From the NCBI GenBank assembly GCA_023898465.1, contig CP060223.1:896001-960000 (forward strand): DNA of 64,000 bases. Reading direction: 5' to 3'. Shown one piece after another: positions 16,040 through 29,901 of this stretch. Below the pieces are notes generated by a model. That model was given only the letters and a program-made list of their open reading frames with translations, was not told the DNA's origin and searched no databases. A program made the translations under genes and the position numbers. The first letter of the stretch is position 1; every line of letters begins with the position of its first letter. Source of the stretch: Candidatus Nomurabacteria bacterium (GTDB lineage: Bacteria > Patescibacteriota > Patescibacteriia > HK-STAS-PATE-3).

Positions 16040-17908
16040 ATGCGTTCACTCTTCAAAAACTTCATCATCTTCGCGTTTATTTTCCTGGTTATTGCCGGGG
16101 TATTAAGCGTACTTAATAGTCCTCTTGGCTCTAGTCAAGAAGTGCCACTCAGTGATGCGCTGGCAAAAGTAAAAGCAGGTGAAGTAAAGGAAGTGGTGGT
16201 TGATGGAGCAAAACTGTCTCTGACACTGCAGGACGATCAGACCATTACCACGAAGAAAGAGGAAAGTGAATCATTCACCGAGCTCGCCCAGAACTATGGC
16301 ATCACCACTGAGCAATTAGATGCAGTGAAACTCAGCGTGAAGGTTGATTCAACTTCCGTTTGGCTCACCCCACTTCTCACTTTCCTGGTTCCATTCCTAC
16401 TCATTGGTGGATTCATTTGGTTCACCTTCCGACAAGTGCAAGGACAAAATAGTCGAGCGCTTTCTTTCGGACGGAGCAACCCTCGCCAGCAAGAACCACA
16501 AAAGCAAAGAAAGCGTGTGCTATTCAAGGACGTGGCTGGTGCCCAAGAATCCAAAGAAGAACTGAAAGAGGTGGTTGAATTCCTTAAGAGTCCGAAGAAG
16601 TTCCTGAGCCTAGGCGCGCGCATACCGCGTGGCGTCCTCCTCGTTGGCTCACCAGGAACAGGTAAGACACTACTCGCTAAAGCTATTGCTGGCGAGGCAG
16701 ACGTACCCTTCTTCAACATCTCTGGATCGGAATTCGTTGAAATGTTTGTTGGTGTGGGAGCTTCTCGCGTACGTGATCTTTTCCGCCGAGCGAAGAAAAG
16801 CGCTCCTTGCATTATCTTCATTGATGAAATTGACGCAGTCGGACGCCAACGCGGTGCCGGCATTGGCGGCAGCCATGATGAGCGTGAACAGACCCTGAAC
16901 CAAATCCTGGTGGAGATGGACGGCTTTGACACTGACACAAACGTGATTGTTATTGCCGCAACCAACCGACCTGACATTCTCGATCCAGCCTTGCTGCGCC
17001 CTGGTCGTTTTGACCGACGTGTTGTCATTGACCTGCCGGATCTGAACGATCGTGAGGCTATCTTAAAGGTACACGCGGATAAAAAGCCATTAGCTCCATC
17101 AGTAAACCTTCGCACCGTTGCTGAGCGCACCCCTGGTTTCTCTGGTGCTGATCTCGCAAACCTGTTGAATGAAGCGGCTATCCTGGCTGCGCGCGCCAAT
17201 CGCAAAAGCGTAGAAATGGATGACTGTCTGCAGGCAATCGAAAAAGTTATCCTGGGACCCGAGCGACGAAGCCGTGTTATCTCAGACAAGGAAAAGAAGA
17301 TTACCGCCTATCACGAAGGCGGACACGCTTTAGTCGGTCACGTGCTTCCAAATGTAGACCCAGTGCGCAAAATCTCAATCATTTCCCGAGGCATGGCTGG
17401 AGGCTACACATTAAAACTACCTTCTGAAGATAAACATTATCGCAGCAAGTCGGAATTCCTCGACGAGCTAGCTATGATGCTCGGTGGCTGGACAGCAGAA
17501 CGACTGATCTTCCATGACATTACGACCGGCGCTTCTAATGACTTAAAGGAAGCGACCGCCCTAGCTCGTCGGATTGTGACGCAATACGGTATGAGTGACG
17601 CATTAGGACCACGCACCTTTGGTCAAAAAGAAGAAATGGTCTTCTTGGGCCGTGAAATCCACGAACGTCGTGATTACTCAGAAAAAATTGCCCAGCAAAT
17701 CGACGAGGAAGTAAGCACAATCATCAAAGACGCGCAGCATCGAGCTGAAAAGATTCTCAATGAGCAGCGCGATATGCTCGAAAACATTGCTGCGTATCTC
17801 ATCGCTCACGAGACTATTGAACAAGAAGAGTTTGAAAAGCTCGTTGGCGCAAAAGAAGCAGCTACCCCAACTGAACACAAGACTGCTGAAGAAACAGTAC
17901 AGACATAG
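16040..17908 (+). CDS. ftsH: ATP-dependent zinc metalloprotease FtsH
   Basis: N-terminal TM helices, Walker [17 protein letters not shown], and the zinc motif HEGGHA. Confidence 0.95.
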
Positions 17909-17929
17909 TTGCGACGCTTGGGGTAAAAG

Positions 17930-17938
17930 TGGTATACT
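17930..17938 (+). promoter_or_regulatory. extended -10 element TGGTATACT
   Basis: The same 9-mer recurs upstream of the pilin-like gene at 36308. It lies 24 nt before the ATG at 17962. Confidence 0.35.
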
Positions 17939-17961
17939 CTCGATAGGGGAAAACAGAATTC

Positions 17962-18888
17962 ATGCATTTCTATCGAGATATTCTCAAGCGCGCCTGGCAA
18001 GTAACCTACCGAAATCCATTCTTATGGTTCTTCGGGGTTTTTGCCGCACTCGCGGGTAACGGAGAGCAATACGACAGCTTCTTTGACAACGTGAGCTTTG
18101 TAGGAAACCTGCAGTTCAACATGGATCAACTGCGCGAAGCTCACATGGATGGTAAGCTAAATGAATTCTGGTCCAACTTTACCGTTTCCTTCGGTGATAA
18201 TGTTGGCTCCATGCTTCTACTGCTTTTTGTAGCTCTGGTGATCCTCTTCCTTTTCTTCTGGCTCGTCACTATTAGCCAGGCTGCGCTTATTCGCAGTGCC
18301 CAAAACTCATCTGAGAATAAACCGATTGCCTTTCTCGATATTTTTGGAGCTGCTATTCACCGATTCTGGCCACTCTTCCGCCTCAACCTCATTGTCGTAC
18401 TCTTTATCTACGGTCCGCTTGTGCTGCTTGGCTTACCAGCCCTGATTATTTATCTTGATTCTGGTAGCTTAGTTTGGTCAGTGGGACTTAGCCTGCTTGC
18501 CTTCCTTTTCCTTATTCCGATCGGCATCGTCCTCGCCTTCTTAACTAAGTTTGCCAGCGCCTACATAGTGCTTGAAGGACAATCCGCCCTCCAGGGTATT
18601 CGAAGTGCTCTTCAGCTCTTCCGAAAGAACTGGTTAGTGGCTGTTGAAACTGGTCTCCTCCTCCTCATCATCAACTTCATCTACGCTTTTGTTGCGGTGA
18701 GCATTATGACTATGCTGGGCTTCCCTCTCACCCAGGCTGGCGTGGTTGCCTTCACCGTAGTAATGATAATTCTGGGCTCAATCTACGCGGTATTCCGTTA
18801 TACGACCTGGACTATGCTTTGGCGAGAACTAGTGAATGACAAAGGCACTGCTAAGCTTGTTCGCCTCTTTCAAAACAAGGAACAATAA
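17962..18888 (+). CDS. hypothetical polytopic membrane protein
   Basis: 308 aa with about 6 TM helices. No family recognised. Confidence 0.5.
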   Translation: MHFYRDILKRAWQVTYRNPFLWFFGVFAALAGNGEQYDSFFDNVSFVGNLQFNMDQLREAHMDGKLNEFWSNFTVSFGDNVGSMLLLLFVALVILFLFFWLVTISQAALIRSAQNSSENKPIAFLDIFGAAIHRFWPLFRLNLIVVLFIYGPLVLLGLPALIIYLDSGSLVWSVGLSLLAFLFLIPIGIVLAFLTKFASAYIVLEGQSALQGIRSALQLFRKNWLVAVETGLLLLIINFIYAFVAVSIMTMLGFPLTQAGVVAFTVVMIILGSIYAVFRYTTWTMLWRELVNDKGTAKLVRLFQNKEQ

Positions 18889-18913
18889 GAAGGACTACGG
18901 AGCATACAGGCAC

Positions 18914-18936
18914 AACGGGCTTCTTGCCCGTTTTTT
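18914..18936 (+). terminator. rho-independent terminator
   Basis: aacgggcttcttgcccgtt followed by a T-run. Confidence 0.6.
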
Positions 18937-18940
18937 AGAC

Positions 18941-18969
18941 TTGGCGAAAGAGGTATTGCCTGCTAGAAT
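18941..18969 (+). promoter_or_regulatory. promoter TTGGCG-17-TAGAAT for tRNA-Ile(UAU)
   Basis: Hexamers with exact 17-nt spacing. The tRNA 5' end lies about 24 nt downstream. Confidence 0.4.
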
Positions 18970-18992
18970 CGAAACCGCTTTACTACATACAT

Positions 18993-19068
18993 GCGCGCCT
19001 AGCTCAATGGTTAGAGCAGTCGGCTTATATCCGACCGGTTCCAGGTTCGAGCCCTGGGGCGCGCACCA
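18993..19068 (+). tRNA. tRNA-Ile with a UAU anticodon, CCA encoded
   Basis: Manual cloverleaf. Acceptor gcgcgcc/ggcgcgc, D stem gctc/gagc, anticodon stem gtcgg/ccgac, loop cttatat (anticodon tat), T arm ccagg-ttcgagc-cctgg. Confidence 0.8.
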
Positions 19069-19117
19069 GGCTTAAAATGAAAACGACCGTAGCGAATTGC
19101 TGCGGCCGTCTTAGTGT

Positions 19118-19531
19118 TCATTCCTCCTGCCTTGGTGGAGCAACGGGCTCATCTTCAAGGAAACGAGCTTCCGGAAAAGCCACCTCCAGGACACCTAAGA
19201 GATCCTTTGTAGACTGTCCTCTCTTAGGTCCAACATAGAACGCCTGCTCGGCAGTTTCACCATCAGACTCCACCCTCACTACCAAGCGAGGTTGAGTGCC
19301 CTTATGCACGCGCACACCAGCTGGATCCGACCCATTTACCCGATGTAAACCTCCCTCCCGACGTACAGCGAGATCAAGTCGACCAAGTTGAACACGAAAG
19401 TCATGGGCTTTCCTGCGGAGCTCCGGATGCGTACAAGTAGACGTAAGCGGCGCTTCATTTGGCCTGGGTAGATGCCCAAAGTCCACGTGCATGCTTCCTC
19501 TTCTACTTCCCATGGAATACCTCCATAACAA
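19118..19531 (-). CDS. hypothetical protein, GC-rich, with possible distant Hsp20-like C-terminal motif (GVLEVAFPEA)
   Basis: 137-aa ORF at about 60% GC, sitting between two tRNA genes. The family assignment is weak. Confidence 0.3.
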   Translation of the reverse strand: MLWRYSMGSRRGSMHVDFGHLPRPNEAPLTSTCTHPELRRKAHDFRVQLGRLDLAVRREGGLHRVNGSDPAGVRVHKGTQPRLVVRVESDGETAEQAFYVGPKRGQSTKDLLGVLEVAFPEARFLEDEPVAPPRQEE

Positions 19532-19593
19532 AAACTCAAAGAGCCGCCCTCAAAGTACCCTAGGAACATGTCATCGTCAAATGTGGCGTCCGC

Positions 19594-19622
19594 TTGACCA
19601 GAAGCCCTGTTCTCGCTACACT
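19594..19622 (+). promoter_or_regulatory. promoter TTGACC-17-TACACT for tRNA-Val(GAC)
   Basis: Exact 17-nt spacing. The tRNA starts 15 nt downstream. Confidence 0.4.
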
Positions 19623-19636
19623 CTACGGCGTTATAT

Positions 19637-19713
19637 GGGCGGTTAGCTCAGTTGGTTAGAGCGCTACCTCGACACGGTAGAGGTCAGAGGTTCGACTCCT
19701 CTACCGCCCACCA
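19637..19713 (+). tRNA. tRNA-Val(GAC)
   Basis: Acceptor gggcggt/accgccc, anticodon stem ctacc/ggtag, loop tcgacac, CCA encoded. Confidence 0.9.
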
Positions 19714-19734
19714 CCATTAATGAGACCTGTCAGT

Positions 19735-20478
19735 CTACATAAAAGTAAACTGGCGGCCTTTTGCTTTTTTCACTAAGCGCAATACCTCATCCATGTCATC
19801 AGTGATGGTATATAACTGTGCGTCTTTTTTGCTAATTGCACCATCTTGCAACATTCGCTTGCGAATAAATGCATCAAGATCACACCAATACTCGCACCCA
19901 AAAAGAATGAGTGGGCGTTTATCAATCTTCCCATTCTGAATAAGAGTAGCAATGGTAAAAAACTCATCGAGTGTTCCAAAACCTCCTGGAAAAAATACAT
20001 AGGCGCGCGATGAGGTAGACATCATAGTCTTACGCGAGAAGAAATAGTAAAACCCAATGCCCCGCTGCACCCACTTATTCATGCGTTGCTCGTACGGTAA
20101 TTGAATGTTAAGACCAATCGATTCAGCCTTTACCTCGACAGCGCCCCGATTTGCAGCCTCCATAATACCTGGCCCGCCGCCGGTCACAATAGTATACCCA
20201 GCCTTACCTAACTTCTTAGCAAGCAAGCGTGCCTGCTTATATTCTTTTTCATTTTCTCCAGTTCGAGCTGAGCCAAAAATAGTCACGGGATGCTTCAACT
20301 CCGAGATAAATTCAAAGCCATCAATAAACTCGGACAGAATGCGAAAAATCCGCCAAGAAATATTATTTTTAAAATCAAAAGGTTGCACATGTCGCTCTGG
20401 CTTCGCCTTTGGACTGAGCTGGGAGGGATGAGTAATGTGCTCCTCTACTGTATTCATGTCTGTTTTTTTGCTTGGCAT
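19735..20478 (-). CDS. LOG-family (TIGR00730) cytokinin riboside 5'-monophosphate phosphoribohydrolase-like protein
   Basis: TIFGSARTGE, VTGGGPGIMEAANRGA and FFPGGFGTLDEFF motifs. Confidence 0.8.
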   Translation of the reverse strand: MPSKKTDMNTVEEHITHPSQLSPKAKPERHVQPFDFKNNISWRIFRILSEFIDGFEFISELKHPVTIFGSARTGENEKEYKQARLLAKKLGKAGYTIVTGGGPGIMEAANRGAVEVKAESIGLNIQLPYEQRMNKWVQRGIGFYYFFSRKTMMSTSSRAYVFFPGGFGTLDEFFTIATLIQNGKIDKRPLILFGCEYWCDLDAFIRKRMLQDGAISKKDAQLYTITDDMDEVLRLVKKAKGRQFTFM

Positions 20479-20585
20479 GGGTACTCAATGAAAAGATAAA
20501 CTCCTTACAGCATAGCAGAGCCTGGCCTGAGCGTCACTGCCATAAGCATTGCTGTCTCGACGCTCATTTGCTAGGCTATAGCTAT

Positions 20586-21137
20586 ATGGCACCAATCGAA
20601 TCAACCCAAGCAAAACTAGGCAGCGAATTACCCGATTTCAATCTCATCGGTACAGGCGGAGGTATGAATGCGCCTCGTGATTTCGCAGATTATAAAGTGT
20701 TGGTGGTTGCCTTTATTTGTAATCACTGTCCATACGCCAAGGCAGCTATTCCGCGCCTTATTAAGCTGCAAGAGGAATATCTAGAGAAGAGCGTCATGTT
20801 TGTCGGTATCAATGCCAATGATCCAAAGGAATACCCTGAGGATGACATGGAACACATGACAAAGTACGCCCAAGAATGGGGCATGAACTTCCCTTACCTG
20901 GTAGACGATACCCAGGAAGTTGCCAAGGCTTTTGGCGCGGTTTGCACTCCGGATATCTTCGTCTATGACCGTGACCGTAAGCTTGCCTACCATGGACGAA
21001 TTGATGATAACTGGCAGGATGAGGAACAGGTAAGCACCTATGATCTCAAGGAAGCGTTGGAAGCACTGATTATTGGTGCGGATGTGAATCCAGAACAGCA
21101 TCCATCCATGGGCTGCTCGATTAAGTGGAAGCAGTAG
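20586..21137 (+). CDS. thioredoxin-fold thiol-disulfide oxidoreductase / peroxiredoxin-like protein
   Basis: CNHC (CxxC) motif within VVAFICNHCPYAKAAIP. Start chosen at MAPIES. Confidence 0.65.
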   Translation: MAPIESTQAKLGSELPDFNLIGTGGGMNAPRDFADYKVLVVAFICNHCPYAKAAIPRLIKLQEEYLEKSVMFVGINANDPKEYPEDDMEHMTKYAQEWGMNFPYLVDDTQEVAKAFGAVCTPDIFVYDRDRKLAYHGRIDDNWQDEEQVSTYDLKEALEALIIGADVNPEQHPSMGCSIKWKQ

Positions 21138-21217
21138 ATAGGATTTCGCTAAGCTTACCAAGATAGTAAAGATGCAATCGAATATGAGTTTATTCGATAT
21201 TTTGGAATTGGCATTCG

Positions 21218-21226
21218 TGCTACAAT
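21218..21226 (+). promoter_or_regulatory. extended -10 TGCTACAAT placed 9 nt before the ATG (leaderless-type)
   Basis: tgctacaat, then agtgtggct, then the ATG at 21236. Confidence 0.4.
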
Positions 21227-21235
21227 AGTGTGGCT

Positions 21236-22714
21236 ATGACGCATTCAGTACTTAGCTCTCGACTTACTCAAGTTCCCATTCTTCCAGCACTTCGAAACCT
21301 GCAGAAGGCCTATGCATCTGCCGAGGTATATGTTGTTGGTGGAGCAATACGCGATGCCCTACTCAAACGAAAGGGTGGAGATATTGACTATCTTATTCGA
21401 AATGTTTCTTATGCAAATCTCGCGCGCCATTTGCAAAAGAGTGGCAGCGCTCAACTTGTTGGCAAACATTTTGGTGTTATCAAATATTCTCCACGTGGAA
21501 CAAAAGAGATATACGATATTGCCCTGCCTCGCTTAGAGCACTCTTTGCACATGAGTGGGGCCTATCATGACTTTGCGGTGCAGTCAGATCCTAAACTCCC
21601 AGTTGCTGAGGATCTCAAGCGACGCGACTTCACTATTAACGCCATGGCCTGGAATATTCATAGCGGCGAATTTGTAGATCCAAGCAATGGTCTGGCTGAC
21701 CTCGTCGCAAAAAAAATCCGGACTGTAGGTAACCCGAAGCAACGCTTCCAAGAAGACTACACTCGTCTACTTCGCGCTCTACGTTTTGCAGTTGAGCTAG
21801 ATTTTCAAATTGAGGATTCTAGCTGGCGCATTTTGAAACAACTGATTGGTAACCTTAGTAACCGCGTACTCCCACGTGAAGCAATTGCGGCTGAGCTAGT
21901 AAAAATGTTTGCTCGAGCGCCCCTGGCTACGGTTGACGCACTAGAAAATTCGGGTGCGCTACGCGTGCTCATGCCTGAAGCGCATGAAATGAAACGAGTT
22001 GTCCAGCCCGTGCTTCATCATCGCGAAGGATCAGTCTGGCAGCATGCCCACCTCAGCTTAGAAGCGTACACACACCCTGAATTCCGTCGGCGTTTCCCTA
22101 AATTCAAACCTGATGCTGAGCTCTACTTCGCAACCTGGATGCACGACATTGCCAAATCCGTCACTATGAAGCATGTCGGTTCGCACAGCACAAAGCCGCA
22201 CTACAAAAATCATGCTTCTGTAGGCGCGCATATGGCCGTCCGTATTGCTGAACGATTAAAGCTATCTTCAGCCGGTGGTCAAATTCTTCCACGCCGACTC
22301 GATTGGCTGTTGAGAAACCACCTTGTCCGCCTCAAAGTACATGAGCTAGATTTAGATGAAGTAGAACATCTTTTTTGCAACCCCAATCTACCAGGCGAAA
22401 AATTACTCGCTTTAAATTTTGCAGATGCCTGGGCATCAATTCCAGAAGAGGGCGGGCATGACCTCCGTGACCTTGATGCACTAATGAAAAAAATTGCTCT
22501 AGTAAAAAAACGTGGATTCAAAAAAGGTAAGCCGTATCACCTACTAAGCGGAAAAGACGTCATGAAAGGCATGCAAGTTTCTGCTGGACCTCAGGTCGGT
22601 AGTTTCCTCAGCCTGGTTCGCTATCAGCAACTAGAGGGCAAGTTGCTAAGTAAAGCGGCCGCGCTAAAATATCTTGCGCAATATTACCAATCAAAGCTAA
22701 AGAAATCCTCATGA
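21236..22714 (+). CDS. CCA-adding tRNA nucleotidyltransferase / poly(A) polymerase family protein with an HD domain
   Basis: VVGGAIRDALLKRKGGDIDYLI (pol-beta NT motif), RRDFTINAMA and a C-terminal HD region. Confidence 0.8.
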   Translation: MTHSVLSSRLTQVPILPALRNLQKAYASAEVYVVGGAIRDALLKRKGGDIDYLIRNVSYANLARHLQKSGSAQLVGKHFGVIKYSPRGTKEIYDIALPRLEHSLHMSGAYHDFAVQSDPKLPVAEDLKRRDFTINAMAWNIHSGEFVDPSNGLADLVAKKIRTVGNPKQRFQEDYTRLLRALRFAVELDFQIEDSSWRILKQLIGNLSNRVLPREAIAAELVKMFARAPLATVDALENSGALRVLMPEAHEMKRVVQPVLHHREGSVWQHAHLSLEAYTHPEFRRRFPKFKPDAELYFATWMHDIAKSVTMKHVGSHSTKPHYKNHASVGAHMAVRIAERLKLSSAGGQILPRRLDWLLRNHLVRLKVHELDLDEVEHLFCNPNLPGEKLLALNFADAWASIPEEGGHDLRDLDALMKKIALVKKRGFKKGKPYHLLSGKDVMKGMQVSAGPQVGSFLSLVRYQQLEGKLLSKAAALKYLAQYYQSKLKKSS

Positions 22715-23649
22715 ACATTGCCGCTATAGAAAAAGATATCGAAGTAGACGCCGCACATGACGGGGCGCGTTTAGATCGCTTCCTGGTTGATCATATTGAG
22801 GGCATTTCACGCGCTGAGCTGCAACGTTGGATTAAGCAAGGTGAGGTTCGAGTGAATGGGAAAAATGCTATTCCTCATCAAGCGCTGAAAGTTTGCGATC
22901 GCATTCACATCGAGCACCAAGCATCCGAACAACACACGCCGGATGCTCTAGCTGCTATTCAAGTGCTAGCCGAAGAAAAAGATTTCCTCATCATCTCAAA
23001 ACCTTCTGGCGTCCTCATGCACGCCACACCAAATTCGCACGAACAAACTTTAGCTGACTGGCTACTCGCGCACTACCCCGAGTTGCATGGTGTCGGCGAA
23101 GATCCTACACGACCTGGCATTGTGCATCGCCTTGATCGTGACGTATCCGGCCTCCTGCTCGTTGCCCGCACTCCAGACGCATTCATCTATTATAAAAATC
23201 TTTTTCAGGAACGGGCAATGGAAAAAGTATATATTGCCTTAGCTCACGGGAGCGTTGAAGAAGATGGAATGATTGAACTGCCCATCTCCCGTTCTCAATC
23301 AAACCGCCGGAGGATGGCAGCCCGAGCTGATGGTATAGGACGTCCGGCAATTACCGCCTATCATATTTTGAAGCGCTATCCTCATCTGACCTTACTTGAG
23401 GTGAAGCCAAAGACTGGACGCATGCATCAAATCCGCGTCCATCTCAATGCCATTGGCCACCCGATTGTGGGCGACCGTCTCTATGTAAAAAAGGCCAGCA
23501 AGGCCACCCAACTGCGACGACCCTTCCTCCATGCCCATAAACTAGCCTTTGTCGACCAAGAGGGCAAAGAAAGGGCCTATACTCTAGCAATACCCCAGGA
23601 ATTACAGGAGTATCTGGATACGCTTGACGAGAAACACGAAAATAGCTAG
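22711..23649 (+). CDS. RluA-family 23S rRNA pseudouridine synthase (RluD-like, with S4 domain)
   Basis: [20 protein letters not shown] catalytic Asp motif and an N-terminal S4-like region. Confidence 0.85.
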
Positions 23650-23689
23650 ACTGAGGGCCGATTTACATTTTCATTACTTTAGAAAAAAC

Positions 23690-24025
23690 ATGTCAGAAAC
23701 ACTAGCTCCGCTGCATGACAGCCTTCCTGAAGTGAAGTCAGGTCAGCAGGTCCGAGTCCATCAAAAAATCAGCGAGGGGGACAAGGAACGCAATCAGGTT
23801 TTTGAAGGCGTTGTCTTAAAGCGCAGTGGCGGCAAAGGCCCATCAGCCAGTATTACTGTTCGCAAAATTGGTGCTGGTGGCATTGGTGTAGAACGCATCT
23901 TCCCTCTTCATTCACCTGTCATCACCAAGGTTGAAGTAGTGGGTGAAGCAAAGACACGACGAGCAAATCTCAGCTATCTCCGTAAGCCTCGCGCCAAGCA
24001 GCTGAAGATGAAGTCAGTCAAATAA
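23690..24025 (+). CDS. rplS: 50S ribosomal protein L19
   Basis: [28 protein letters not shown]...[19 protein letters not shown] is the L19 signature. Start chosen at MSETLAP. Confidence 0.9.
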
Positions 24026-24029
24026 GTTC

Positions 24030-24046
24030 CTGCGCGGGTGGCGGAA
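24030..24046 (+). repeat. 17-nt copy of the tRNA-Leu(GAG) 5' end (ctgcgcgggtggcggaa), followed by two perfect 8-bp hairpins
   Basis: Identical to 24378-24394. Downstream are cccgaacc-acgcag-ggttcggg and cctgcacc-tcacaa-ggtgcagg. Confidence 0.6.
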
Positions 24047-24122
24047 CCCCGAACCACGCAGGGTTCGGGAGTCCTGCACCTCACAAGGTGCAGGGTGGGA
24101 GTAAACATTATGTACTCTTACT

Positions 24123-24371
24123 ATGTCATTCGTTTATATCCTGCTACTTAATAATCAAGAGCTCTACGTCGGATTTACTGCCGACCTTAATCGACGACTT
24201 GAAGAGCATCAACTAGGTAGGAGTGGTTACACAAGTAAGTACCTACCAGTAAAACTACTTTTTTATGAAGCCTTTACCAGCGAAGTGGATGCGCGGCGAA
24301 GAGAGAAATATTTAAAAACGAGTAAAGGTAAATCAACGATACGGATGATGCTCCGTACTACACTGCAGTAA
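24123..24371 (+). CDS. GIY-YIG nuclease family protein (YhbQ/UPF0213-like, 82 aa)
   Basis: VYILLLNNQELYVGFTADLNRRLEEHQLG matches GIY-YIG motifs. Confidence 0.8.
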   Translation: MSFVYILLLNNQELYVGFTADLNRRLEEHQLGRSGYTSKYLPVKLLFYEAFTSEVDARRREKYLKTSKGKSTIRMMLRTTLQ

Positions 24372-24378
24372 TATATCT

Positions 24379-24464
24379 GCGCGGGTGGCGGAATGGTATA
24401 CGCGCTAGCTTGAGGTGCTAGTGGCCGCAAGGCCTTGGAGGTTCAAGTCCTCTCCCGCGCACCA
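24379..24464 (+). tRNA. tRNA-Leu(GAG), type II with a long variable arm
   Basis: Acceptor gcgcggg/cccgcgc, anticodon stem ctagc/gctag, loop ttgaggt, variable arm tggccgcaaggcct, CCA encoded. Confidence 0.9.
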
Positions 24465-24575
24465 CGTGAAGCGTGGTGCTAAATAGCTGAGCAAAATTAG
24501 ACATACCACCGTAGCAAAAGCTGCGTTGCTTTTAAATTGGATAGACTCTTCACTGCTTAAACTCAAATGGTCTTC

Positions 24576-24797
24576 TCAGATGAGTATTAGCAAAACACAC
24601 ACAAGAATTTGCCCTAGGAGAAGTCCTGCACCAACCTGACGACGACCATCAATAATCCGTGCAAATCCAAGTGCAAAGAAAACTATAAAACCGCCTGATA
24701 CAAAAACTAAACTAGCAGGCGCTTGCATGAGCGCTATGTTCCATGCAAAAAACTGATAGAGAAAACTGAGAACGCAAAAAATTATTACTTTTTTCAT
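24576..24797 (-). CDS. hypothetical small membrane protein (73 aa)
   Basis: Two predicted TM helices. Located between tRNA genes. Confidence 0.35.
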   Translation of the reverse strand: MKKVIIFCVLSFLYQFFAWNIALMQAPASLVFVSGGFIVFFALGFARIIDGRRQVGAGLLLGQILVCVLLILI

Positions 24798-24923
24798 AAA
24801 AGGAAATGGACATCGTATTTGTATATATTTAATCGCACGCCTAGCTCTTTTGTTTCATGAAAGCTCGCTGTATTAATTCCAAAATCATGCTACTATGCTA
24901 GCAAGTAATTTTACTCTACCTCT

Positions 24924-25163
24924 ATGAAAAAAATTCTCGCTACCTTTTCATTCATACTTTTAGCCAGTCCATCCATTGCCTCAGCCCACACTGGCGTAGA
25001 ACACACAGGGACTTTTTGGCATATTTTTCTCCACCTGCTTAGCGAACCAGATCACATCTTCATAATAGGATCTATCGTTATCCTGGGTTATGGCGTACTG
25101 CTTCATACGAAACCACAGAGGAGTTTATCTCGTGTTCCACGTGGAAGCATTGCTAAGTATTGA
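24924..25163 (+). CDS. hypothetical small secreted/membrane protein (79 aa)
   Basis: Signal-peptide-like N-terminus MKKILATFSFILLASPSIASA, then a TM helix. Confidence 0.35.
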   Translation: MKKILATFSFILLASPSIASAHTGVEHTGTFWHIFLHLLSEPDHIFIIGSIVILGYGVLLHTKPQRSLSRVPRGSIAKY

Positions 25164-25188
25164 CTTCCCTAGGCTAATCGCGTAATAA
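25160..25188 (+). promoter_or_regulatory. promoter TTGACT-17-TAATAA for tRNA-Val(UAC)
   Basis: Exact 17-nt spacing. The tRNA starts 16 nt downstream. Confidence 0.4.
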
Positions 25189-25203
25189 TCAGGCCTGTCC
25201 CAT

Positions 25204-25280
25204 GGGCGGTTAGCTCAGTTGGTTAGAGCGCCTCGTTTACACCGAGGAGGTCGGGGGTTCGACTCCCTCACCGCCCACCA
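25204..25280 (+). tRNA. tRNA-Val(UAC)
   Basis: Acceptor gggcggt/accgccc, anticodon stem cctcg/cgagg, loop tttacac, CCA encoded. Confidence 0.9.
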
Positions 25281-25355
25281 CACTTAGCGTGGCCGACCAT
25301 ACAAACCATGGCTAGTAATTGAGGACGCGCTCTATAGATGTAAGTAGTGACTTTT

Positions 25356-25364
25356 TGCTATACT
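25356..25364 (+). promoter_or_regulatory. extended -10 TGCTATACT upstream of ugd
   Basis: The same 9-mer as on the minus strand at 44049-44057. Confidence 0.35.
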
Positions 25365-25395
25365 CATCAGGTACTAACTCCTAACTTTTTATTTC

Positions 25396-26682
25396 ATGAA
25401 AATATCTGTAATTGGCGCCACCGGCTACGTCGGTCTCGTCTCAGCAACCTGCCTTGCCGAAATTGGCCATACGGTAACTTGTTTTGGTAGAAACGCAGAA
25501 GCGATAAATAAATTACAGCGTGGCAATATTCCTATTTATGAACCCGGCTTGAACGAACTAGTCAAAAAGAATATAAAGGCAAAGCGTCTTCGCTTCACCA
25601 CGAATTTTGATCTAGCAGTAAAAGAAAGTCTCGCAATCTTTATTGCCGTAGGAACACCTCCGCTACCAAACGGTAAAGCAGACCTACGCGCCGTATTTGA
25701 AGTTGCACAACGTATCGGGCAAAGCATGACCGACTATAAGGTTATTGTTGATAAAAGCACTGTGCCAGTTGGAACGGGCCAAGAGGTGAAGCACATTATT
25801 GCAAAGGAATACTCAGGAAGATTTGATGTTGCTTCATGTCCAGAATTTTTGCGCGAGGGTTCAGCTATTGAAGACTTCATGCATCCAGATCGAGTGGTTA
25901 TTGGTACTGATTCTGAAAAAGCAAAAAGGGTTATGCTTGATATTTTCAAACCCCAGAAGACTACTAAGCTCACTACAAATATTGAAAGTGCCGAACTTAT
26001 TAAGTATGCTTCCAATGCTTTCTTGGCCACCAAAATTTCATTTATCAATGAGATATCCAACCTTTGCGATTTAGTCCGGGCTGATGTTGAGGAAGTCGCT
26101 CGAGGTATGGGCCTAGATAAGCGTATTGGACAAAGTTTCTTAAAGGCTGGAGTGGGATACGGCGGCAGCTGTTTCCCTAAGGATGTGAGTGCCTTAAAAG
26201 AACTTGCGGGATCTAGTGGCTATGACTTTCAGTTACTTAAGGCTGTCATTGAGGTAAACAATACACAACGATCAGTCGTCATTGCAAAAGCAAAACAACT
26301 ACTTGGTTCCTTGCGGAACAAACACATCGGCGTACTTGGACTGGCTTTTAAGCAAAATACTGATGATGTACGGGAGTCTGCTGCCATAGACATTATTAAA
26401 CTGCTGCAAAAGGCTGGTGCAAAAATTACTGCTTTTGACCCAGTGGCTACAGAAAAAGCAAAAAGTAAGCTTACTCGCGTAAAGTATGCCAAGTCAGCCA
26501 AGGAAGCATGTAAGCAGACTGATCTCCTTGTCATTGTGACTGAGTGGCCTGAATTCGCTCAGCTTGATTGGAAAAAAATCCGTCCAACTATGAGACAAGC
26601 AAAAATTGTTGATGGACGTAACCTGCTTGATCCAATAAAGATGCGAGAGTTGGGGTATCAATATCTCAGCGTAGGTCGATAG
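25396..26682 (+). CDS. ugd: UDP-glucose 6-dehydrogenase (nucleotide-sugar dehydrogenase family)
   Basis: MKISVIGATGYVGLVSATCLA (NAD-binding site) and GGSCFPKD catalytic Cys motif. Confidence 0.85.
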   Translation: MKISVIGATGYVGLVSATCLAEIGHTVTCFGRNAEAINKLQRGNIPIYEPGLNELVKKNIKAKRLRFTTNFDLAVKESLAIFIAVGTPPLPNGKADLRAVFEVAQRIGQSMTDYKVIVDKSTVPVGTGQEVKHIIAKEYSGRFDVASCPEFLREGSAIEDFMHPDRVVIGTDSEKAKRVMLDIFKPQKTTKLTTNIESAELIKYASNAFLATKISFINEISNLCDLVRADVEEVARGMGLDKRIGQSFLKAGVGYGGSCFPKDVSALKELAGSSGYDFQLLKAVIEVNNTQRSVVIAKAKQLLGSLRNKHIGVLGLAFKQNTDDVRESAAIDIIKLLQKAGAKITAFDPVATEKAKSKLTRVKYAKSAKEACKQTDLLVIVTEWPEFAQLDWKKIRPTMRQAKIVDGRNLLDPIKMRELGYQYLSVGR

Positions 26683-26744
26683 TAAAAACCCTGCCACTTC
26701 ACTCAAAGAGATAAAGAGACAGGGTTTCAACAGATCACAACTGC

Positions 26745-26960
26745 CTACGCAGTTGATTTGTCGTCGGCGACTTCGTCGCCACTGCTCACGATCTTAGGCT
26801 CATCCATCTTCTGCACCAGCTTTGGCCTGGGCTTTGGCACATACGCCGGAAACTCCCTCTTGCCACGACGATTGGCTATCAGCATAGCGCCGAGCACAAT
26901 CGCTCCTGCCCCCAGGATCGCCAAGAAGAAAAGTACCGGGTTCTGAAGTAGAGACGACAT
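26745..26960 (-). CDS. hypothetical small membrane protein (71 aa)
   Basis: Strong SD (gaggtgaggagg) upstream of the ATG at 26960. One TM helix. Confidence 0.5.
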   Translation of the reverse strand: MSSLLQNPVLFFLAILGAGAIVLGAMLIANRRGKREFPAYVPKPRPKLVQKMDEPKIVSSGDEVADDKSTA

Positions 26961-27073
26961 GATTCCTCCTCACCTCGATTGTTAACCCCCGCATTTACTC
27001 TAGCCTAAAACGACTTTGCTCCTACGTCAAATACCCGCTGCCGACGGGCTATGAAAAATGCAGCAAAGCAATT

Positions 27074-27241
27074 TTAGCGTTTATCTTTTAAGCGCCCTCG
27101 TTTCTTCAACGCTTCACGGAGCACCCACTCGATTTGACCATTCAGGCTGCGCAATTCATCACTAGCCCACCTTTCGAGTGCCTCTAGGGTTGTGCTATCA
27201 ACACGGAGCAAAAATGGCTTTGTCCTCCTTTGTACCGCCAT
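27074..27241 (-). CDS. Arc/MetJ-type ribbon-helix-helix DNA-binding protein (55 aa; not in the ORF track)
   Basis: Reverse translation gives MAVQRRTKPFLLRVDSTTLEALERWASDELRSLNGQIEWVLREALKKRGRLKDKR, a canonical Arc-like RHH. The ATG lies 2 nt after the SPFH stop. Confidence 0.45.
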   Translation of the reverse strand: MAVQRRTKPFLLRVDSTTLEALERWASDELRSLNGQIEWVLREALKKRGRLKDKR

Positions 27242-27243
27242 GC

Positions 27244-28113
27244 TTATTGGTACAAGCTTCCGGTATTCACCACCGGTTGCGCATGACGATCACTGCAAAG
27301 CACAACCAAGAGATTGCTCACCATGGCAGCCTTTCGCTCCTCATCTAATTTTACAACGTCTTTTTTTGAAAGCTCTTCAAGCGCCATCTCTACCATGCCC
27401 ACCGCACCTTCAACTATTCTCGTTCGGGCGGCTACCACCGCACTTGCCTGCTGGCGCTGGAGCATTGCACTGGCAATCTCTGGTGCATAAGCTAAGTGAC
27501 TAATTCGCGCTTCAATAACCTCAACACCTGCTTTTGCCAAACGGTCCTGCACTTCAGCTTTTAGTTTTTCAGCTACGTCATTTGTGTTCCCACGCAATGA
27601 GACCACACCTTCTTGATGAGCGTCATAGGGATATGAGGTAGCCATGTTACGGAGAGCAGCTTCGCTCTGTACATGGACAAAATTTTCATAGTCATCAACA
27701 TTGAACATTGCCTCAGCAGTATCGACAACCTTCCAAACTATGACTGCAGCAATCTCGATGGGGTTACCATCAGAATCATTTACTTTTAACTTTCCGCTTT
27801 CAAAGTTTCGTATGCGAAGAGAAATTCTTCGTCGACTTGTAAAAGGATTCATCCAACGAAAGCCTGACTGTTTTTCTGAACCTATATACTTACCAAACAA
27901 CTGCGCAACTGCAGCCTCATTTGGATTTACAATAAAAAAACCACTTGTACAAAAAAGAACAGCTATCCCTAGGAGTATGGAAACAATTACTAGCCAGATG
28001 GTATTCGCAGTTGCGGCATAAATAAAACCAAACGCCGCCAGACACAAGAGCACAAATAAGGAAGGAGCAGCAACAAAGCCATTAGTCGAACGAACAGCTT
28101 TTTCTTTAATCAT
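27244..28113 (-). CDS. SPFH/Band-7 (stomatin/prohibitin-like) membrane protein
   Basis: N-terminal TM helices, then [21 protein letters not shown]... SPFH domain and a coiled-coil C-terminus. Confidence 0.85.
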
Positions 28114-28127
28114 AGTAAAAAGGTAAA

Positions 28128-28146
28128 TGATATCAAACTGATATCA
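28128..28146. promoter_or_regulatory. double palindromic operator-like site TGATATCA-aac-TGATATCA, 15-33 nt upstream of the SPFH start
   Basis: Two perfect self-complementary 8-mers. A minus-strand TTGACA -35-like hexamer sits at 28169-28174. Confidence 0.4.
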
Positions 28147-28213
28147 GTGAACCTCTTATCTGTACATTTGTCAAGTTAAAAAAAACTACTACGCAGATGT
28201 AGTATGTTTTCTC

Positions 28214-28247
28214 TGGTGGACCCTACCCCGCTGGGCGGGGTCAGCTC
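28214..28247 (-). repeat. degenerate tRNA-Ala 3'-half fragment (T-arm plus acceptor remnant)
   Basis: tggtggaccctacc is identical to the 3' end of tRNA-Ala at 28263 and 29946. It is followed by ccccgctgggcgggg, a T-arm-like hairpin. Confidence 0.5.
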
Positions 28248-28262
28248 TGTATGTTGAGATCT

Positions 28263-28338
28263 TGGTGGACCCTACCGGGCTCGAACCGGTCACCTCCGCG
28301 TTGCAAACGCGGCGCTCTACCAAATGAGCTAAGGGCCC
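28263..28338 (-). tRNA. tRNA-Ala(UGC)
   Basis: Reverse complement gggccct...tttgcaa...agggtcc-a-cca. The G3:U70 Ala identity pair is present. Confidence 0.9.
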
Positions 28339-28626
28339 TTAATTCAGACTATTCGAAACAGGTGAAAAAATATCCCGTAGAAGAGATGGAACAAATCCAG
28401 TCAGTGTAAGAAAAACAATGAAAATCATGAGGATACCGAGAAGCTTTAAAAAAATTCTCGTACCACCCTCGGTACCGAGATGCTGCTCAGCCCATTCGAT
28501 CCGACCAAACCAGTTCATGAAAAAATCAGTCTTGATCACAAGTAGCGCACCTATCAGTATAACGATTCCACCAATTAAATATCGCATAACTCTTCTCGTA
28601 TTATTAACGCCCCCCCCTAGCACCAT
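28339..28626 (-). CDS. hypothetical small membrane protein
   Basis: 95-aa ORF with 2 TM helices. The start is ambiguous (MVLGGG or MRYLIGG). Confidence 0.35.
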   Translation of the reverse strand: MVLGGGVNNTRRVMRYLIGGIVILIGALLVIKTDFFMNWFGRIEWAEQHLGTEGGTRIFLKLLGILMIFIVFLTLTGFVPSLLRDIFSPVSNSLN

Positions 28627-28730
28627 CGAGTACTTGAGCTTGAAAAGCTAAGTACGAGATGAAAAGCGGCACGTTTGCAAAGGGCGCAGTCCGGCTTGGC
28701 CGGGCAAAGCCTGGAGCAAACGATGACGTG

Positions 28731-28807: not shown

Positions 28808-28813
28808 ATGTTT

Positions 28814-28827: not shown

Positions 28828-28854
28828 ATGATGTAAAACTACATAACAACGCGG

Positions 28855-29810: not shown

Positions 29811-29820
29811 TTTTTAATTG

Positions 29821-29895: not shown

Positions 29896-29901
29896 TAGTG
29901 T

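What the first reader, a model, noticed from the sequence alone, without database searches (positions are those of the whole stretch)
18993..19068. tRNA-Ile with a UAU anticodon
The cloverleaf is unambiguous, and the anticodon loop cttatat places TAT at positions 34-36. Most bacteria decode AUA with a lysidine-modified CAU tRNA (TilS). Genomically encoded UAU tRNA-Ile is rare and usually coincides with loss of tilS. It has its own TTGGCG-17-TAGAAT promoter. It is followed by a GC-rich orphan ORF and then tRNA-Val.
Basis: partly seen in the sequence, partly recalled or inferred. Interest (0 to 1): 0.5.

Follow-up and report, generated by a model that had tools for sequence, protein, structure and literature searches.

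The report
Conserved tRNA-Ile(UAU) gene in a CPR bacterium
This is a genuine, functional isoleucine tRNA with a UAU anticodon that reads the AUA codon without the usual lysidine modification; the type is rare in classical bacteria, but in this ultra-small (Patescibacteria/CPR) lineage and many of its relatives it is a conserved gene sitting next to ftsH.

Summary
Window 18993-19068 (+) is a canonical 76-nt tRNA with anticodon TAT at positions 34-36, A37, A73 and an encoded CCA (ARAGORN; Rfam 67 bits; the cloverleaf is the minimum-energy fold).

It is neither a pseudogene nor a recent C-to-T mutant. It sits on the tRNA-Ile2 scaffold. At least 35 other genomes, almost all Patescibacteria, carry the same scaffold with T34, and their stems covary (99.6% paired; 15 of 21 pairs compensatory). 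In 22 of those loci, plus two loci found through FtsH, the tRNA lies just downstream of ftsH, as it does here.

AUA makes up 8.25 per 1000 codons. It falls on conserved Ile columns in FtsH and UDP-glucose dehydrogenase, so AUA means Ile.

The window comes from a 1.08-Mb MAG, NCBI label Candidatus Nomurabacteria (protein USN53405.1).

No TilS is encoded in the 64-kb window. None occupies the widespread tilS-(hpt)-ftsH position in any related locus. The cultured Saccharibacterium Southlakia does have tilS directly upstream of ftsH and has no TAT tRNA, so the loss is not CPR-wide.

Verdict: a new member of a known kind (TilS-independent tRNA-Ile(UAU)). Its clade-wide spread appears undescribed in the literature I could search.

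The parts
18993..19068 (+). tRNA-Ile(UAU) gene, 73 nt plus encoded CCA. Acceptor stem GCGCGCC/GGCGCGC, anticodon arm GTCGG-CTTATAT-CCGAC, A37, A73.
   Evidence: ARAGORN. Rfam 67.1 bits. Cloverleaf is the MFE fold. 35-sequence family with 99.6% of cells paired and 15 of 21 pairs compensatory.
18941..18969 (+). Promoter-like site TTGGCG-17 nt-TAGAAT with a TG extended -10; the -10 ends 23 nt before the mature 5' end.
   Evidence: Consensus scan; weak on its own. Several relatives have TGn-TAnnnT -10-like boxes 10-17 nt upstream of their copy.
18914..18936 (+). Intrinsic-terminator-like hairpin (AACGGGC/GCCCGUU) plus U6, ending the ftsH-DUF7544 transcription unit just before the tRNA promoter.
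   Evidence: Fold -13.3 kcal/mol, z = -2.9; sequence.
16040..17908 (+). ftsH, the conserved upstream neighbour of the tRNA-Ile(UAU) gene across Patescibacteria.
   Evidence: Pfam M41/AAA/FtsH_ext. ftsH lies 45-2900 bp upstream of the TAT tRNA in 24 other loci.
17962..18888 (+). DUF7544/DUF7847-like membrane protein between ftsH and the tRNA; conserved in the closest relatives.
   Evidence: Pfam, weak. Same slot occupied in L056, L123 and L125.
19080..19112 (-). Hairpin that folds much better on the minus strand and is followed there by UUUUCAUUUU. Read as the terminator of the convergent ORFan; it possibly also stops read-through from the tRNA.
   Evidence: -21.2 kcal/mol, z = -3.7 on the minus strand; -16 kcal/mol, z = -1.8 on the plus strand.
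19118..19492 (-). ORFan of 124 aa from the ATG (137 aa from the upstream TTG at 19531). It occupies a variable slot between tRNA-Ile(UAU) and tRNA-Val(GAC). Not part of the decoding system.
   Evidence: No Pfam hit. The only hit among 1.84 billion representatives is itself. The slot holds unrelated genes, or nothing, in L056, L123 and L125.
19637..19713 (+). tRNA-Val(GAC), conserved downstream partner. The order Ile(TAT)-Val(GAC)-Leu(GAG)-Val(TAC) is also found in L065.
21230..22714 (+). CCA-adding enzyme / poly(A) polymerase family gene, followed by an RluD-type pseudouridine synthase (22711-23649). Syntenic in relatives. Listed as context only; no link to this tRNA is shown.
   Evidence: Pfam; same order in L125.

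Best explanation
The gene encodes a functional minor isoleucine tRNA whose genomically encoded UAU anticodon reads AUA as Ile without lysidine. It is the orthologue of bacterial tRNA-Ile2, with T instead of C at position 34. In this branch of the Patescibacteria the T34 state is old and fixed, and the gene travels with ftsH. It is transcribed from its own promoter, after the terminator of the ftsH-DUF7544 unit. It is presumably processed by RNase P, and its CCA end is encoded in the gene. IleRS presumably charges it using A73, t6A37 and the anticodon. It most likely is the only AUA decoder of a genome that has no tilS and no tRNA-Ile2(CAU).

Shown: the gene, its fold, its conservation, its synteny, and the meaning of AUA. 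Inferred: charging by IleRS, absence of tilS elsewhere in the genome, and how AUG misreading by a U34-G wobble is avoided. For the last point my best guess is an unmodified or lightly modified U34, competition from tRNA-Met, and tuning by the lineage-specific pyrimidine at position 38 and by the ribosome, as in Mycoplasma mobile.
For: Real tRNA with a TAT anticodon.

Scaffold: it shares the D-arm, variable loop and T-loop of tRNA-Ile2(CAU) genes from more than 8 other phyla, and differs from the window's own tRNA-Ile(GAU).

Conservation:
- 37 TAT copies among the 120 loci returned; 26 are labelled CPR, and none of the 81 CAT copies is.
- 35 non-phage copies give 99.6% paired cells, 15 of 21 pairs with compensatory changes, 0 of 500 shuffles as good, and slid controls at 27-46%.
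- A73, A37 and C32 are invariant. Position 38 is always C or T in the TAT set and always A in the CAT set. 27:43 is mostly C:G in the TAT set and G:T in the CAT set.

Synteny: S1-ftsH-DUF-tRNA-Ile(TAT)-tRNA-Val(GAC) in L056, L123 and L125. ftsH lies directly upstream of the tRNA in 24 other loci.

Codon meaning: ATA is 135 of 16,366 codons. The single ATA in FtsH aligns with Ile in 113 of 120 homologues. Four of the six ATA sites in UGDH align with Ile in 101-112 of 119 homologues. Met is essentially absent at these sites.

No TilS:
- None among 57 window ORFs scanned with Pfam, none by phmmer, and no PP-loop motif, in the window or in 1.03 Mb of fetched loci.
- By contrast, 28 of 80 metagenomic TilS loci have ftsH directly downstream.
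- Southlakia (Saccharimonadia) has tilS 126 bp upstream of ftsH, three CAT tRNAs and no second tRNA-Ile. This is the expected mutual exclusivity.

A related lineage: Minisyncoccus archaeiphilus belongs to the class Minisyncoccia, and a MAG labelled Minisyncoccia (L048) carries a TAT copy. The Minisyncoccus IleRS has the DUF5915 C-terminal domain. My reading from Pfam knowledge is that this marks the eukaryote/archaeal-type IleRS, the type found in tilS-less Bifidobacterium and Neorickettsia (PMC3575796).
Against: Only 64 kb of a 1.08-Mb genome could be read, so a tilS gene and a tRNA-Ile2(CAU) elsewhere are not excluded. Some bacteria carry both systems, for example Lactobacillus casei, Cyanothece and Ferrimonas (PMC3575796). 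At least one Patescibacterium (Southlakia) has tilS, so loss is not phylum-wide. Some NCBI organism labels are unreliable: L109 is labelled 'Saccharibacteria' but is nearly identical in its tRNA and tmRNA tag to L048, labelled 'Minisyncoccia'. Nothing here addresses aminoacylation, the modification state of U34, or AUG misreading.
Confidence: 0.7

Rival explanations
1. Redundant decoder. The genome also has tilS and a tRNA-Ile2(CAU), and AUA is read by both LAU and UAU tRNAs, as proposed for Lactobacillus casei, Cyanothece PCC 7424 and Ferrimonas balearica.
For: Coexistence is documented in a few bacteria (PMC3575796). TilS exists in at least one Patescibacterium. About 94% of this genome was not readable.
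Against: There is no tilS at the conserved position next to ftsH in the window or in any related locus. In Southlakia and in 28 of 80 unrelated TilS loci tilS sits exactly there. All CPR copies of the Ile2 scaffold in the sample carry T34, and none carries C34. The TilS-bearing Southlakia has no TAT tRNA. Long-term retention of a dispensable enzyme is unlikely in a 1-Mb reduced genome (inference).
Confidence: 0.2
2. Mobile or phage-derived tRNA. The gene was brought in by a phage or integrative element to boost AUA decoding, and the neighbouring ORFan is a remnant of that element.
For: 25 IMG/VR contigs carry TAT tRNAs on the same D-arm scaffold. Two Bacteroidota MAG contigs hold it inside tRNA arrays (L079, L120). 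The slot between tRNA-Ile and tRNA-Val is variable and here holds an ORFan.
Against: The best viral copy is only 60 of 73 identical to the window's tRNA. The gene is in conserved chromosomal synteny with gyrA, S1 and ftsH across relatives whose FtsH is 57-74% identical. There are no phage genes around it in the window. It is single, not part of an array.
Confidence: 0.03
3. Decaying or recently mutated gene: a tRNA-Ile2(CAU) or tRNA-Ile(GAU) copy that recently acquired T34 and is non-functional or a suppressor, like the tRNA-Ile1 G34U suppressor of Bacillus subtilis lacking tilS.
For: A single C-to-T transition separates CAT from TAT. Such suppressors arise in the laboratory (PMC3919564, listed).
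Against: T34 is shared by all 35 aligned relatives, with many compensatory stem changes. The TAT set has class-specific differences at positions 38, 27:43 and 44 relative to CAT tRNAs. The scaffold differs from the window's tRNA-Ile(GAU). The cloverleaf is perfect.
Confidence: 0.02
4. AUA is reassigned, and the UAU tRNA is charged with another amino acid, for example Met as for AUA in many mitochondria.
For: CPR lineages are known for code changes, such as UGA = Gly in SR1 (PMC3812714).
Against: ATA codons align with conserved Ile (and Val), not Met, in FtsH and UGDH, with the same profile as ATT and ATC. A73 and the Ile2 scaffold are retained.
Confidence: 0.02

Closest known systems
Mycoplasma mobile tRNA-Ile2(UAU) (Taniguchi et al. 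2013, PMC3575796)
   Same: A genomically encoded UAU anticodon on a tRNA-Ile2-type body. It decodes AUA without lysidine in a small, reduced genome. A37 (t6A in M. mobile) and A73 are present.
   Different: In M. mobile the loss of tilS is a recent event within one genus. U34 was shown to be unmodified, IleRS carries a Trp-to-Arg change, and the ribosome rejects AUG. None of these could be tested here. In the present case the T34 state is shared by a large radiation and is linked to ftsH.
Bifidobacterium and Neorickettsia tRNA-Ile(UAU), with a eukaryote-type IleRS and no tilS (PMC3575796; PMC8450103)
   Same: A clade-level rather than single-species replacement of the lysidine system. A related Patescibacterium, Minisyncoccus, has an IleRS with DUF5915, which I read as the same eukaryote/archaeal IleRS type.
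   Different: The IleRS of this genome was not seen. Different phylum.
Bacteria with both tilS and tRNA-Ile(UAU): Lactobacillus casei, Cyanothece PCC 7424, Ferrimonas balearica
   Same: A TAT tRNA gene in a bacterial chromosome.
   Different: Those cases are sporadic and the TAT tRNA is possibly redundant. Here the gene is conserved across many lineages, and no tilS lies at its usual locus.
Canonical bacterial tRNA-Ile2(CAU) plus TilS (lysidine), e.g. E. coli ileX/ileY and tilS
   Same: Same D-arm (TAGCTCAATGGTTAGAGCA in the sampled phyla), same variable-loop and T-loop architecture, A37 and A73, and the same codon served.
   Different: T34 instead of C34, so it cannot be lysidinylated. A pyrimidine instead of A at position 38. 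C27:G43 instead of G27:U43. The acceptor stem is not held at G1-G2-G3.
Eukaryotic cytoplasmic tRNA-Ile(UAU), and archaeal tRNA-Ile3(UAU) of Nanoarchaeum and Korarchaeum
   Same: AUA read by a U34 tRNA rather than by a modified C34.
   Different: From my own knowledge, eukaryotes protect against AUG reading with pseudouridine at positions 34 and 36, introduced in an intron-dependent way. There is no intron here, and no evidence on modification.

Membership tests
tRNA (Rfam RF00005) | Scores above the family gathering threshold with a complete cloverleaf | tested here: met
   67.1 bits against 29, model positions 1-71 of 71. ARAGORN. MFE fold is the cloverleaf.
Bacterial tRNA-Ile(UAU), TilS-independent AUA decoder ('tRNA-Ile3') | Genomic anticodon TAT at positions 34-36 in a 7-nt loop with U33 and A37 | tested here: met
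   Loop CTTATAT. Invariant in 35 relatives.
Bacterial tRNA-Ile(UAU), TilS-independent AUA decoder ('tRNA-Ile3') | AUA codons are used and specify isoleucine | tested here: met
   8.25 ATA per 1000 codons. ATA sites align with conserved Ile in FtsH and UGDH.
Bacterial tRNA-Ile(UAU), TilS-independent AUA decoder ('tRNA-Ile3') | Aminoacylated with Ile by IleRS; discriminator A73 and t6A37 as identity elements | not testable with these tools
   A73 and A37 are present and invariant in the family. TsaD and TsaE are encoded in related CPR loci. Charging itself needs an experiment.
Bacterial tRNA-Ile(UAU), TilS-independent AUA decoder ('tRNA-Ile3') | Genome lacks tilS and tRNA-Ile2(CAU), as in the 'instead of' cases of PMC8450103 | tested here: inconclusive
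   Absent from the 64-kb window and from the ftsH-adjacent position in all related loci. The rest of the 1.08-Mb genome (USN53405.1 record) could not be read.
Bacterial tRNA-Ile(UAU), TilS-independent AUA decoder ('tRNA-Ile3') | IleRS adapted to a UAU anticodon: either Arg/Lys in place of the Zn-domain Trp, or a eukaryote-type IleRS | not testable with these tools
   ileS is not in the window. Only an indirect hint exists: the Minisyncoccus IleRS carries PF19302 DUF5915.
tRNA-Ile2(CAU), the lysidine-dependent substrate of TilS | C34 (anticodon CAT), the base that TilS modifies | tested here: not met
   T34.
tRNA-Ile2(CAU), the lysidine-dependent substrate of TilS | Body shared with tRNA-Ile2 genes of other phyla (D-arm, 5-nt variable loop, A73); acceptor pairs 3:70, 4:69 and 5:68 read by type I TilS (PMC11947777) | tested here: inconclusive
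   The D-arm and architecture are identical to 81 CAT genes. The window tRNA has G3:C70 and C4:G69, but G5:C68. The family differs from the CAT set at 38, 27:43 and 44, and has a freely varying acceptor stem.
Phage-borne tRNA-Ile(UAU) | Located in a phage genome, prophage or tRNA array | tested here: not met
   A single gene in conserved chromosomal synteny. The nearest IMG/VR copy is 60 of 73 identical.

The most novel reading that the evidence does not exclude
Most Patescibacteria outside Saccharimonadia (Paceibacteria/Parcubacteria-type, ABY1/Kerfeld-type and Woesebacteria-type lineages) have no TilS/lysidine system at all. They decode AUA with an ancient, ftsH-linked, genomically encoded tRNA-Ile(UAU), probably paired with a non-canonical IleRS. 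That would make them by far the largest bacterial clade without lysidine. It would also provide a natural TilS-plus versus UAU split inside one radiation, on which to test whether UAU or LAU decoding is ancestral and how U34 avoids reading AUG.
Probability: 0.5. Interest if true: 0.65.

Novelty: new member of a known kind. Interest (0 to 1): 0.45.

Why it matters
Recent papers still describe lysidine as the near-universal bacterial solution for AUA and tRNA-Ile(UAU) as a rarity. This window shows the UAU solution as a conserved, syntenic and evidently selected gene in a CPR genome. The comparative scan suggests the same holds for many CPR lineages, while Saccharimonadia keep tilS.

If whole-genome surveys confirm this, three things follow:
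- TilS-based marker sets (from my own recollection, TIGR02432 belongs to the bac120 marker set) and TilS-targeted antibacterial ideas would not apply to a large part of bacterial diversity.
- The evolutionary scenario of Taniguchi et al., with a UAU ancestor, later acquisition of tilS, and repeated reversions, becomes testable within one radiation.
- A cultured Minisyncoccus-type organism would be the place to look for how an A-ending split-box codon is read accurately by U34.

For annotation, it warns that the AUA decoder in these genomes is a TAT tRNA. It also warns that 'tRNA(Ile)-lysidine synthase' labels can be false; the one in the Minisyncoccus MAG has a sugar amidotransferase as its best UniRef match.

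Tried and rejected
1. Reaching the rest of the source genome.
- Exact-protein look-ups for the DUF7544 protein and UGDH returned only Logan contigs of 2-3 kb; look-ups for FtsH and the CCA-adding enzyme found no record.
- The 1.08-Mb NCBI contig is known to the protein database but is not in the gene-position index.
- tilS, ileS and the full tRNA set therefore could not be checked.

2. Finding a CPR TilS seed.
- No TilS lies within 10 kb of ftsH in five FtsH-anchored CPR loci.
- A metagenome scan with a three-species TilS profile gave 80 TilS loci, none recognisably CPR.
- I spent the last large protein search on a groundwater TilS fragment (L236). It turned out to be Omnitrophota, a dead end.

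3. tRNA(CAT) genes next to tilS in metagenomic loci first looked like linked tRNA-Ile2 substrates. The one upstream of tilS in L222 and three others are initiator-type by their C1 end and GGG/CCC anticodon stem; the rest I read as elongator-Met-like. I dropped the idea.

4. 'CPR-wide loss of tilS' was my working idea. It is refuted by Southlakia epibionticum, which has tilS (SEML1_0730) next to ftsH and no TAT tRNA.

5. Literature searches pairing lysidine, tilS or tRNA modification with Patescibacteria, candidate phyla radiation, Saccharibacteria or Parcubacteria found nothing relevant.
- The annotation tables for the Minisyncoccus genomes were incomplete: two files were cut when stored, and the MAG lacks ftsH. 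The absence of TilS there is only suggestive.
- The Kantor 2013 supplements are not held.

6. The nearby RluD-type pseudouridine synthase as a possible psi34 enzyme: such genes are ubiquitous and there is no specific evidence. Not pursued.
Full report
**The observation**

ARAGORN finds ten tRNA genes in the window. One is tRNA-Ile with anticodon tat, at exactly 18993-19068 on the plus strand. Rfam's tRNA model scores it 67.1 bits against a gathering score of 29, E = 2e-12.

The sequence is GCGCGCC-TA-GCTC-AATGGTTA-GAGC-A-GTCGG-CTTATAT-CCGAC-CGGTT-CCAGG-TTCGAGC-CCTGG-GGCGCGC-A-CCA. It folds as a perfect cloverleaf as its minimum-energy structure: -33.8 kcal/mol, with none of 200 shuffles as stable. 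The register is unambiguous: U33, T34-A35-T36, A37.

**The surroundings**

The window is a bacterial chromosome segment. It carries CofD, PFK, RNase III, NusB, GyrA, an S1-domain protein, FtsH, a CCA-adding enzyme, an RluD-type pseudouridine synthase, L19, UDP-glucose dehydrogenase, T4SS-pilin-like genes, GH57 and glycogen synthase genes, and TyrRS.

The nearest named relatives of its FtsH and UGDH are Patescibacteria: Kerfeldbacteria, Falkowbacteria, Buchananbacteria, 'Patescibacteria group'. The UGDH is 100% identical to NCBI USN53405.1, 'MAG: Candidatus Nomurabacteria bacterium', on a contig of 1,082,586 bp. That record is evidently the source genome.

The tRNA lies 1,088 bp downstream of ftsH, after a DUF7544-like membrane protein. 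A hairpin plus U6 terminator at 18914-18936 ends that unit. The TTGGCG-17-TAGAAT match with a TG extended -10 follows at 18941-18969. Such consensus matches are weak evidence: 4 were found against 1.2 expected in the region. The terminator-promoter-tRNA order still makes independent transcription plausible, and several relatives have extended -10-like boxes just upstream of their copy.

The 'orphan ORF' is on the opposite strand (19118-19531). It has 53% G+C against 47% for the window. A strong minus-strand terminator hairpin lies at 19080-19112. The ORF has no Pfam match. It has no homologue other than itself among 1.84 billion representative proteins. In relatives the same slot between tRNA-Ile and tRNA-Val is 51 bp long (L123) or holds unrelated genes (L056, L125). 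It is a variable slot and not part of the decoding system.

**Is the tRNA functional and old?**

I scanned one genome per species of 185,579 prokaryotic species for the D-arm plus an anticodon loop with either C or T at position 34.

- 81 loci carry CAT, always in the loop CTCATAA. They come from Alphaproteobacteria, Deinococcota, Chloroflexota, Mycoplasmatota, Verrucomicrobiota, Omnitrophota, Actinomycetota and other phyla. None is labelled CPR.
- 37 loci carry TAT. 26 are labelled as CPR lineages: Kaiser-, Vogel-, Taylor- and Woesebacteria, Paceibacteria, Parcubacteria, Minisyncoccia, 'Saccharibacteria' and 'Patescibacteria group'. 6 are labelled only 'bacterium'. 2 are labelled 'uncultured Gammaproteobacteria'; one of these (L005) shares the window's RluD/CCA-enzyme neighbourhood and is probably a mislabelled CPR. 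1 is a Chloroflexota (Ca. Aquidulcis). 2 are tRNA arrays in Bacteroidota contigs.

This tRNA therefore sits on the tRNA-Ile2 scaffold, and in CPR genomes that scaffold carries T34.

An alignment of the 35 non-array TAT sequences gives 99.6% of cells paired and 15 of 21 pairs with compensatory double changes. There are 156 double-change cells against 39 in shuffles. No shuffle in 500 does as well, and slid controls reach only 27-46% paired. The D-arm and the 31:39 pair were fixed by the search pattern and say nothing; the other three helices vary freely and stay paired.

The TAT and CAT classes differ systematically:
- Position 38 is C or T in all TAT sequences and A in all CAT sequences.
- 27:43 is mostly C:G in the TAT set and G:T in the CAT set.
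- Position 44 is C or G in the TAT set and T in the CAT set.
- G1-G2-G3 is invariant in the CAT set across many phyla. The TAT set flips 1:72 between G:C and C:G.
- A73, A37 and C32 are invariant in both sets.

The body differs from the window's own tRNA-Ile(GAU). This is an old, selected gene. It is not a pseudogene, a recent C-to-T mutant, or a derivative of tRNA-Ile1.

**Synteny**

The closest copy is L056, SAG AM-311-M06, identical at 74 of 76 positions. It sits in S1-ftsH-DUF-tRNA-Ile(TAT)-[variable]-tRNA-Val(GAC). Two MAGs, whose FtsH is 74% (L123) and 67% (L125, labelled Kerfeldbacteria) identical to the window's, have the same order within gyrA...S1-ftsH-DUF-tRNA-tRNA.

A tblastn search with FtsH over all fetched loci shows ftsH immediately upstream of the TAT tRNA, at 45-2,900 bp. 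This holds in 22 of the 35 non-array TAT loci from the genome scan, and in the two FtsH-anchored loci. Upstream of ftsH these loci carry an S1 gene or the tmRNA gene.

**Meaning and use of AUA**

In 47 window genes ATA accounts for 135 of 16,366 codons. That is 8.25 per 1000 codons, or 12% of Ile codons. It is nearly absent from gyrA, S1 and ftsH, as expected for a minor codon.

The single ATA of FtsH aligns with Ile in 113 of 120 homologues. Four of the six ATA sites of UGDH align with Ile in 101-112 of 119 homologues, one with Val or Ile, and one lies in a variable column. Met is essentially absent, and the profile matches that of ATT and ATC sites. AUA is therefore Ile, and the cell needs an accurate AUA decoder.

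**The tilS question**

A UAU anticodon cannot be a TilS substrate, so this tRNA works without lysidine whatever else the genome holds. Whether the genome also lacks tilS could not be settled.

- The window has no CAT tRNA.
- The window has no PF01171 protein among 57 ORFs scanned.
- phmmer with E. coli TilS and a PP-loop motif search found nothing in the window or in 1.03 Mb of fetched loci.

Position gives indirect evidence. In 28 of 80 TilS loci drawn from metagenomes, ftsH lies directly downstream of tilS, with or without hpt between them. In the cultured Saccharibacterium Southlakia epibionticum ML1, tilS (SEML1_0730, PF01171, K04075) lies 126 bp upstream of ftsH. That genome has three CAT tRNAs annotated tRNA-Met and only one tRNA-Ile (supplement of PMC10633639). 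The classical system thus exists inside the Patescibacteria, at the classical place, and there without a TAT tRNA. The TAT-bearing loci have ftsH without tilS. This is the expected mutual exclusivity. It also refutes my interim idea of a CPR-wide loss.

Two weaker hints:
- In a Minisyncoccus MAG the only 'lysidine synthase' label belongs to a protein whose best UniRef match is an N-acetyl sugar amidotransferase. That MAG lacks ftsH, however, and the later genome table is truncated.
- The Minisyncoccus IleRS carries PF19302 (DUF5915) and best matches a spirochaete enzyme. I read this as the eukaryote/archaeal-type IleRS. PMC3575796 reports that type in the tilS-less Bifidobacterium and Neorickettsia.

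I put the probability that this genome lacks tilS at about 0.7.

**Mechanism**

Shown: the gene, its fold, its conservation, the meaning of AUA, and independence from TilS by chemistry.

Inferred: charging by IleRS through A73, t6A37 and the anticodon. TsaD and TsaE are present in related loci.

Unknown: how a U34-G wobble on AUG is avoided. In M. mobile U34 is unmodified and the cognate ribosome rejects AUG (PMC3575796). Here the class-specific pyrimidine at position 38 is a candidate tuning element for A-site affinity. It changes the 32-38 pair relative to every CAT-type tRNA sampled. This is a hypothesis only.

**Rivals**

- Redundancy with a TilS system elsewhere in the genome remains possible (0.2).
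- A phage or mobile origin is unlikely. 25 IMG/VR contigs carry TAT tRNAs on this scaffold, but the best is 60 of 73 identical, and the window's gene is in conserved chromosomal synteny.
- Pseudogene or recent mutant, and codon reassignment, are contradicted.

**Comparison with what is known, and novelty**

tRNA-Ile(UAU) replacing lysidine is known from some Mycoplasma species (M. mobile among them), Bifidobacterium and Neorickettsia. It coexists with tilS in a few species. Papers from 2024 to 2026 still call it rare.

No paper in the searchable library links lysidine or tilS with Patescibacteria, CPR or Parcubacteria, and the only hit for Saccharibacteria was an unrelated phage paper. The gene in this window is therefore a new member of a known kind. 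Its apparent spread over many CPR lineages, its linkage to ftsH, and the contrast with tilS-bearing Saccharimonadia look undescribed and worth a proper survey.

**Caveats**

- NCBI organism labels for MAGs are unreliable. L109, labelled 'Saccharibacteria', and L048, labelled 'Minisyncoccia', have near-identical tRNAs and tmRNA tags.
- Non-open-access literature was not searched.

Noticed in passing
window 16040-19068, and loci L004, L008, L017, L029, L038, L046, L048-L050, L056, L065, L085, L086, L090, L091, L097, L105, L106, L108, L109, L116, L117, L123, L125: ftsH lies directly upstream (45-2,900 bp) of tRNA-Ile(TAT) in 24 other, mostly CPR-labelled loci. In other bacteria, and in the Saccharibacterium Southlakia, tilS lies directly upstream of ftsH. 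Both AUA-decoding determinants are thus linked to ftsH, on opposite sides. Whether this is more than coincidence is unexplained.
   Followed up: partly
L008, L017, L048, L109, L117 (tmRNA 0.5-1.3 kb upstream of ftsH): In several Paceibacteria/Minisyncoccia-like loci the tmRNA gene sits just upstream of ftsH, giving the order tmRNA-ftsH-tRNA-Ile(UAU). From my own knowledge, FtsH is one of the proteases that degrade ssrA-tagged proteins.
   Followed up: no
window 19118-19531 (-), with hairpin 19080-19112: An ORFan of 124-137 aa with a strong terminator. Its only hit among 1.84 billion representative proteins is itself. It occupies a slot between tRNA-Ile and tRNA-Val that is 51 bp long in L123, holds a nucleotidyltransferase-like gene in L056, and holds a 2'-5' RNA ligase-like gene in L125. 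The slot looks like an insertion hot spot.
   Followed up: partly
L106 626-762 (Parcubacteria GW2011_GWA2_42_14): A truncated 5' half-copy of tRNA-Ile(TAT), running through the anticodon loop, lies immediately upstream of the intact gene. It could be a duplication or an integration scar.
   Followed up: no
L070 4592-4668 (Ca. Aquidulcis, Chloroflexota, class Limnocylindria): A CPR-type tRNA-Ile(TAT), with C27, T38 and the CGGTT variable loop, in a streamlined freshwater Chloroflexota MAG. It is the only clearly non-CPR cellular hit. Whether that genome has tilS is unknown.
   Followed up: no
window 18993-30146: Ten dispersed tRNA genes lie within 11 kb, none with a CAT anticodon. The order Ile(TAT)-Val(GAC)-Leu(GAG)-Val(TAC) is conserved in L065. 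A small GIY-YIG ORF (24123-24371) sits just upstream of tRNA-Leu(GAG), and similar small GIY-YIG genes recur in L127 and L131.
   Followed up: no
window 33941-36725: An array of four T4SS-pilin-like (PF18895) small genes, one of them fused to a peptidoglycan-binding domain. I regard this as typical of CPR genomes.
   Followed up: no
window 47529-55128: A glycogen-type cluster: two starch/glycogen synthases, two GH57 enzymes (one with a UVR motif), an APH-family kinase and a GalT-like transferase.
   Followed up: no
Supplements of PMC10936435, PMC9600506 and PMC12281837; text of PMC3812714 (not in the window): IleRS genes of a Minisyncoccus MAG (PMX_810_sub_00382) and of an SR1 genome carry inserted histidine-phosphatase / phosphoglycerate-mutase domains (a nudix domain as well in SR1), and the Minisyncoccus archaeiphilus IleRS (MNSC_03180) carries DUF5915. 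In the Minisyncoccus MAG, Prokka's 'tRNA(Ile)-lysidine synthase' has an N-acetyl sugar amidotransferase as its best UniRef match. Both are annotation traps for anyone surveying this system.
   Followed up: partly
L132-L156 (IMG/VR contigs): 25 viral contigs carry tRNA(TAT) genes on the same D-arm scaffold. Some are in arrays of up to 20 tRNAs. Others are single genes with CPR-like or Chloroflexota-like bodies, which may be host tRNAs at prophage ends.
   Followed up: partly
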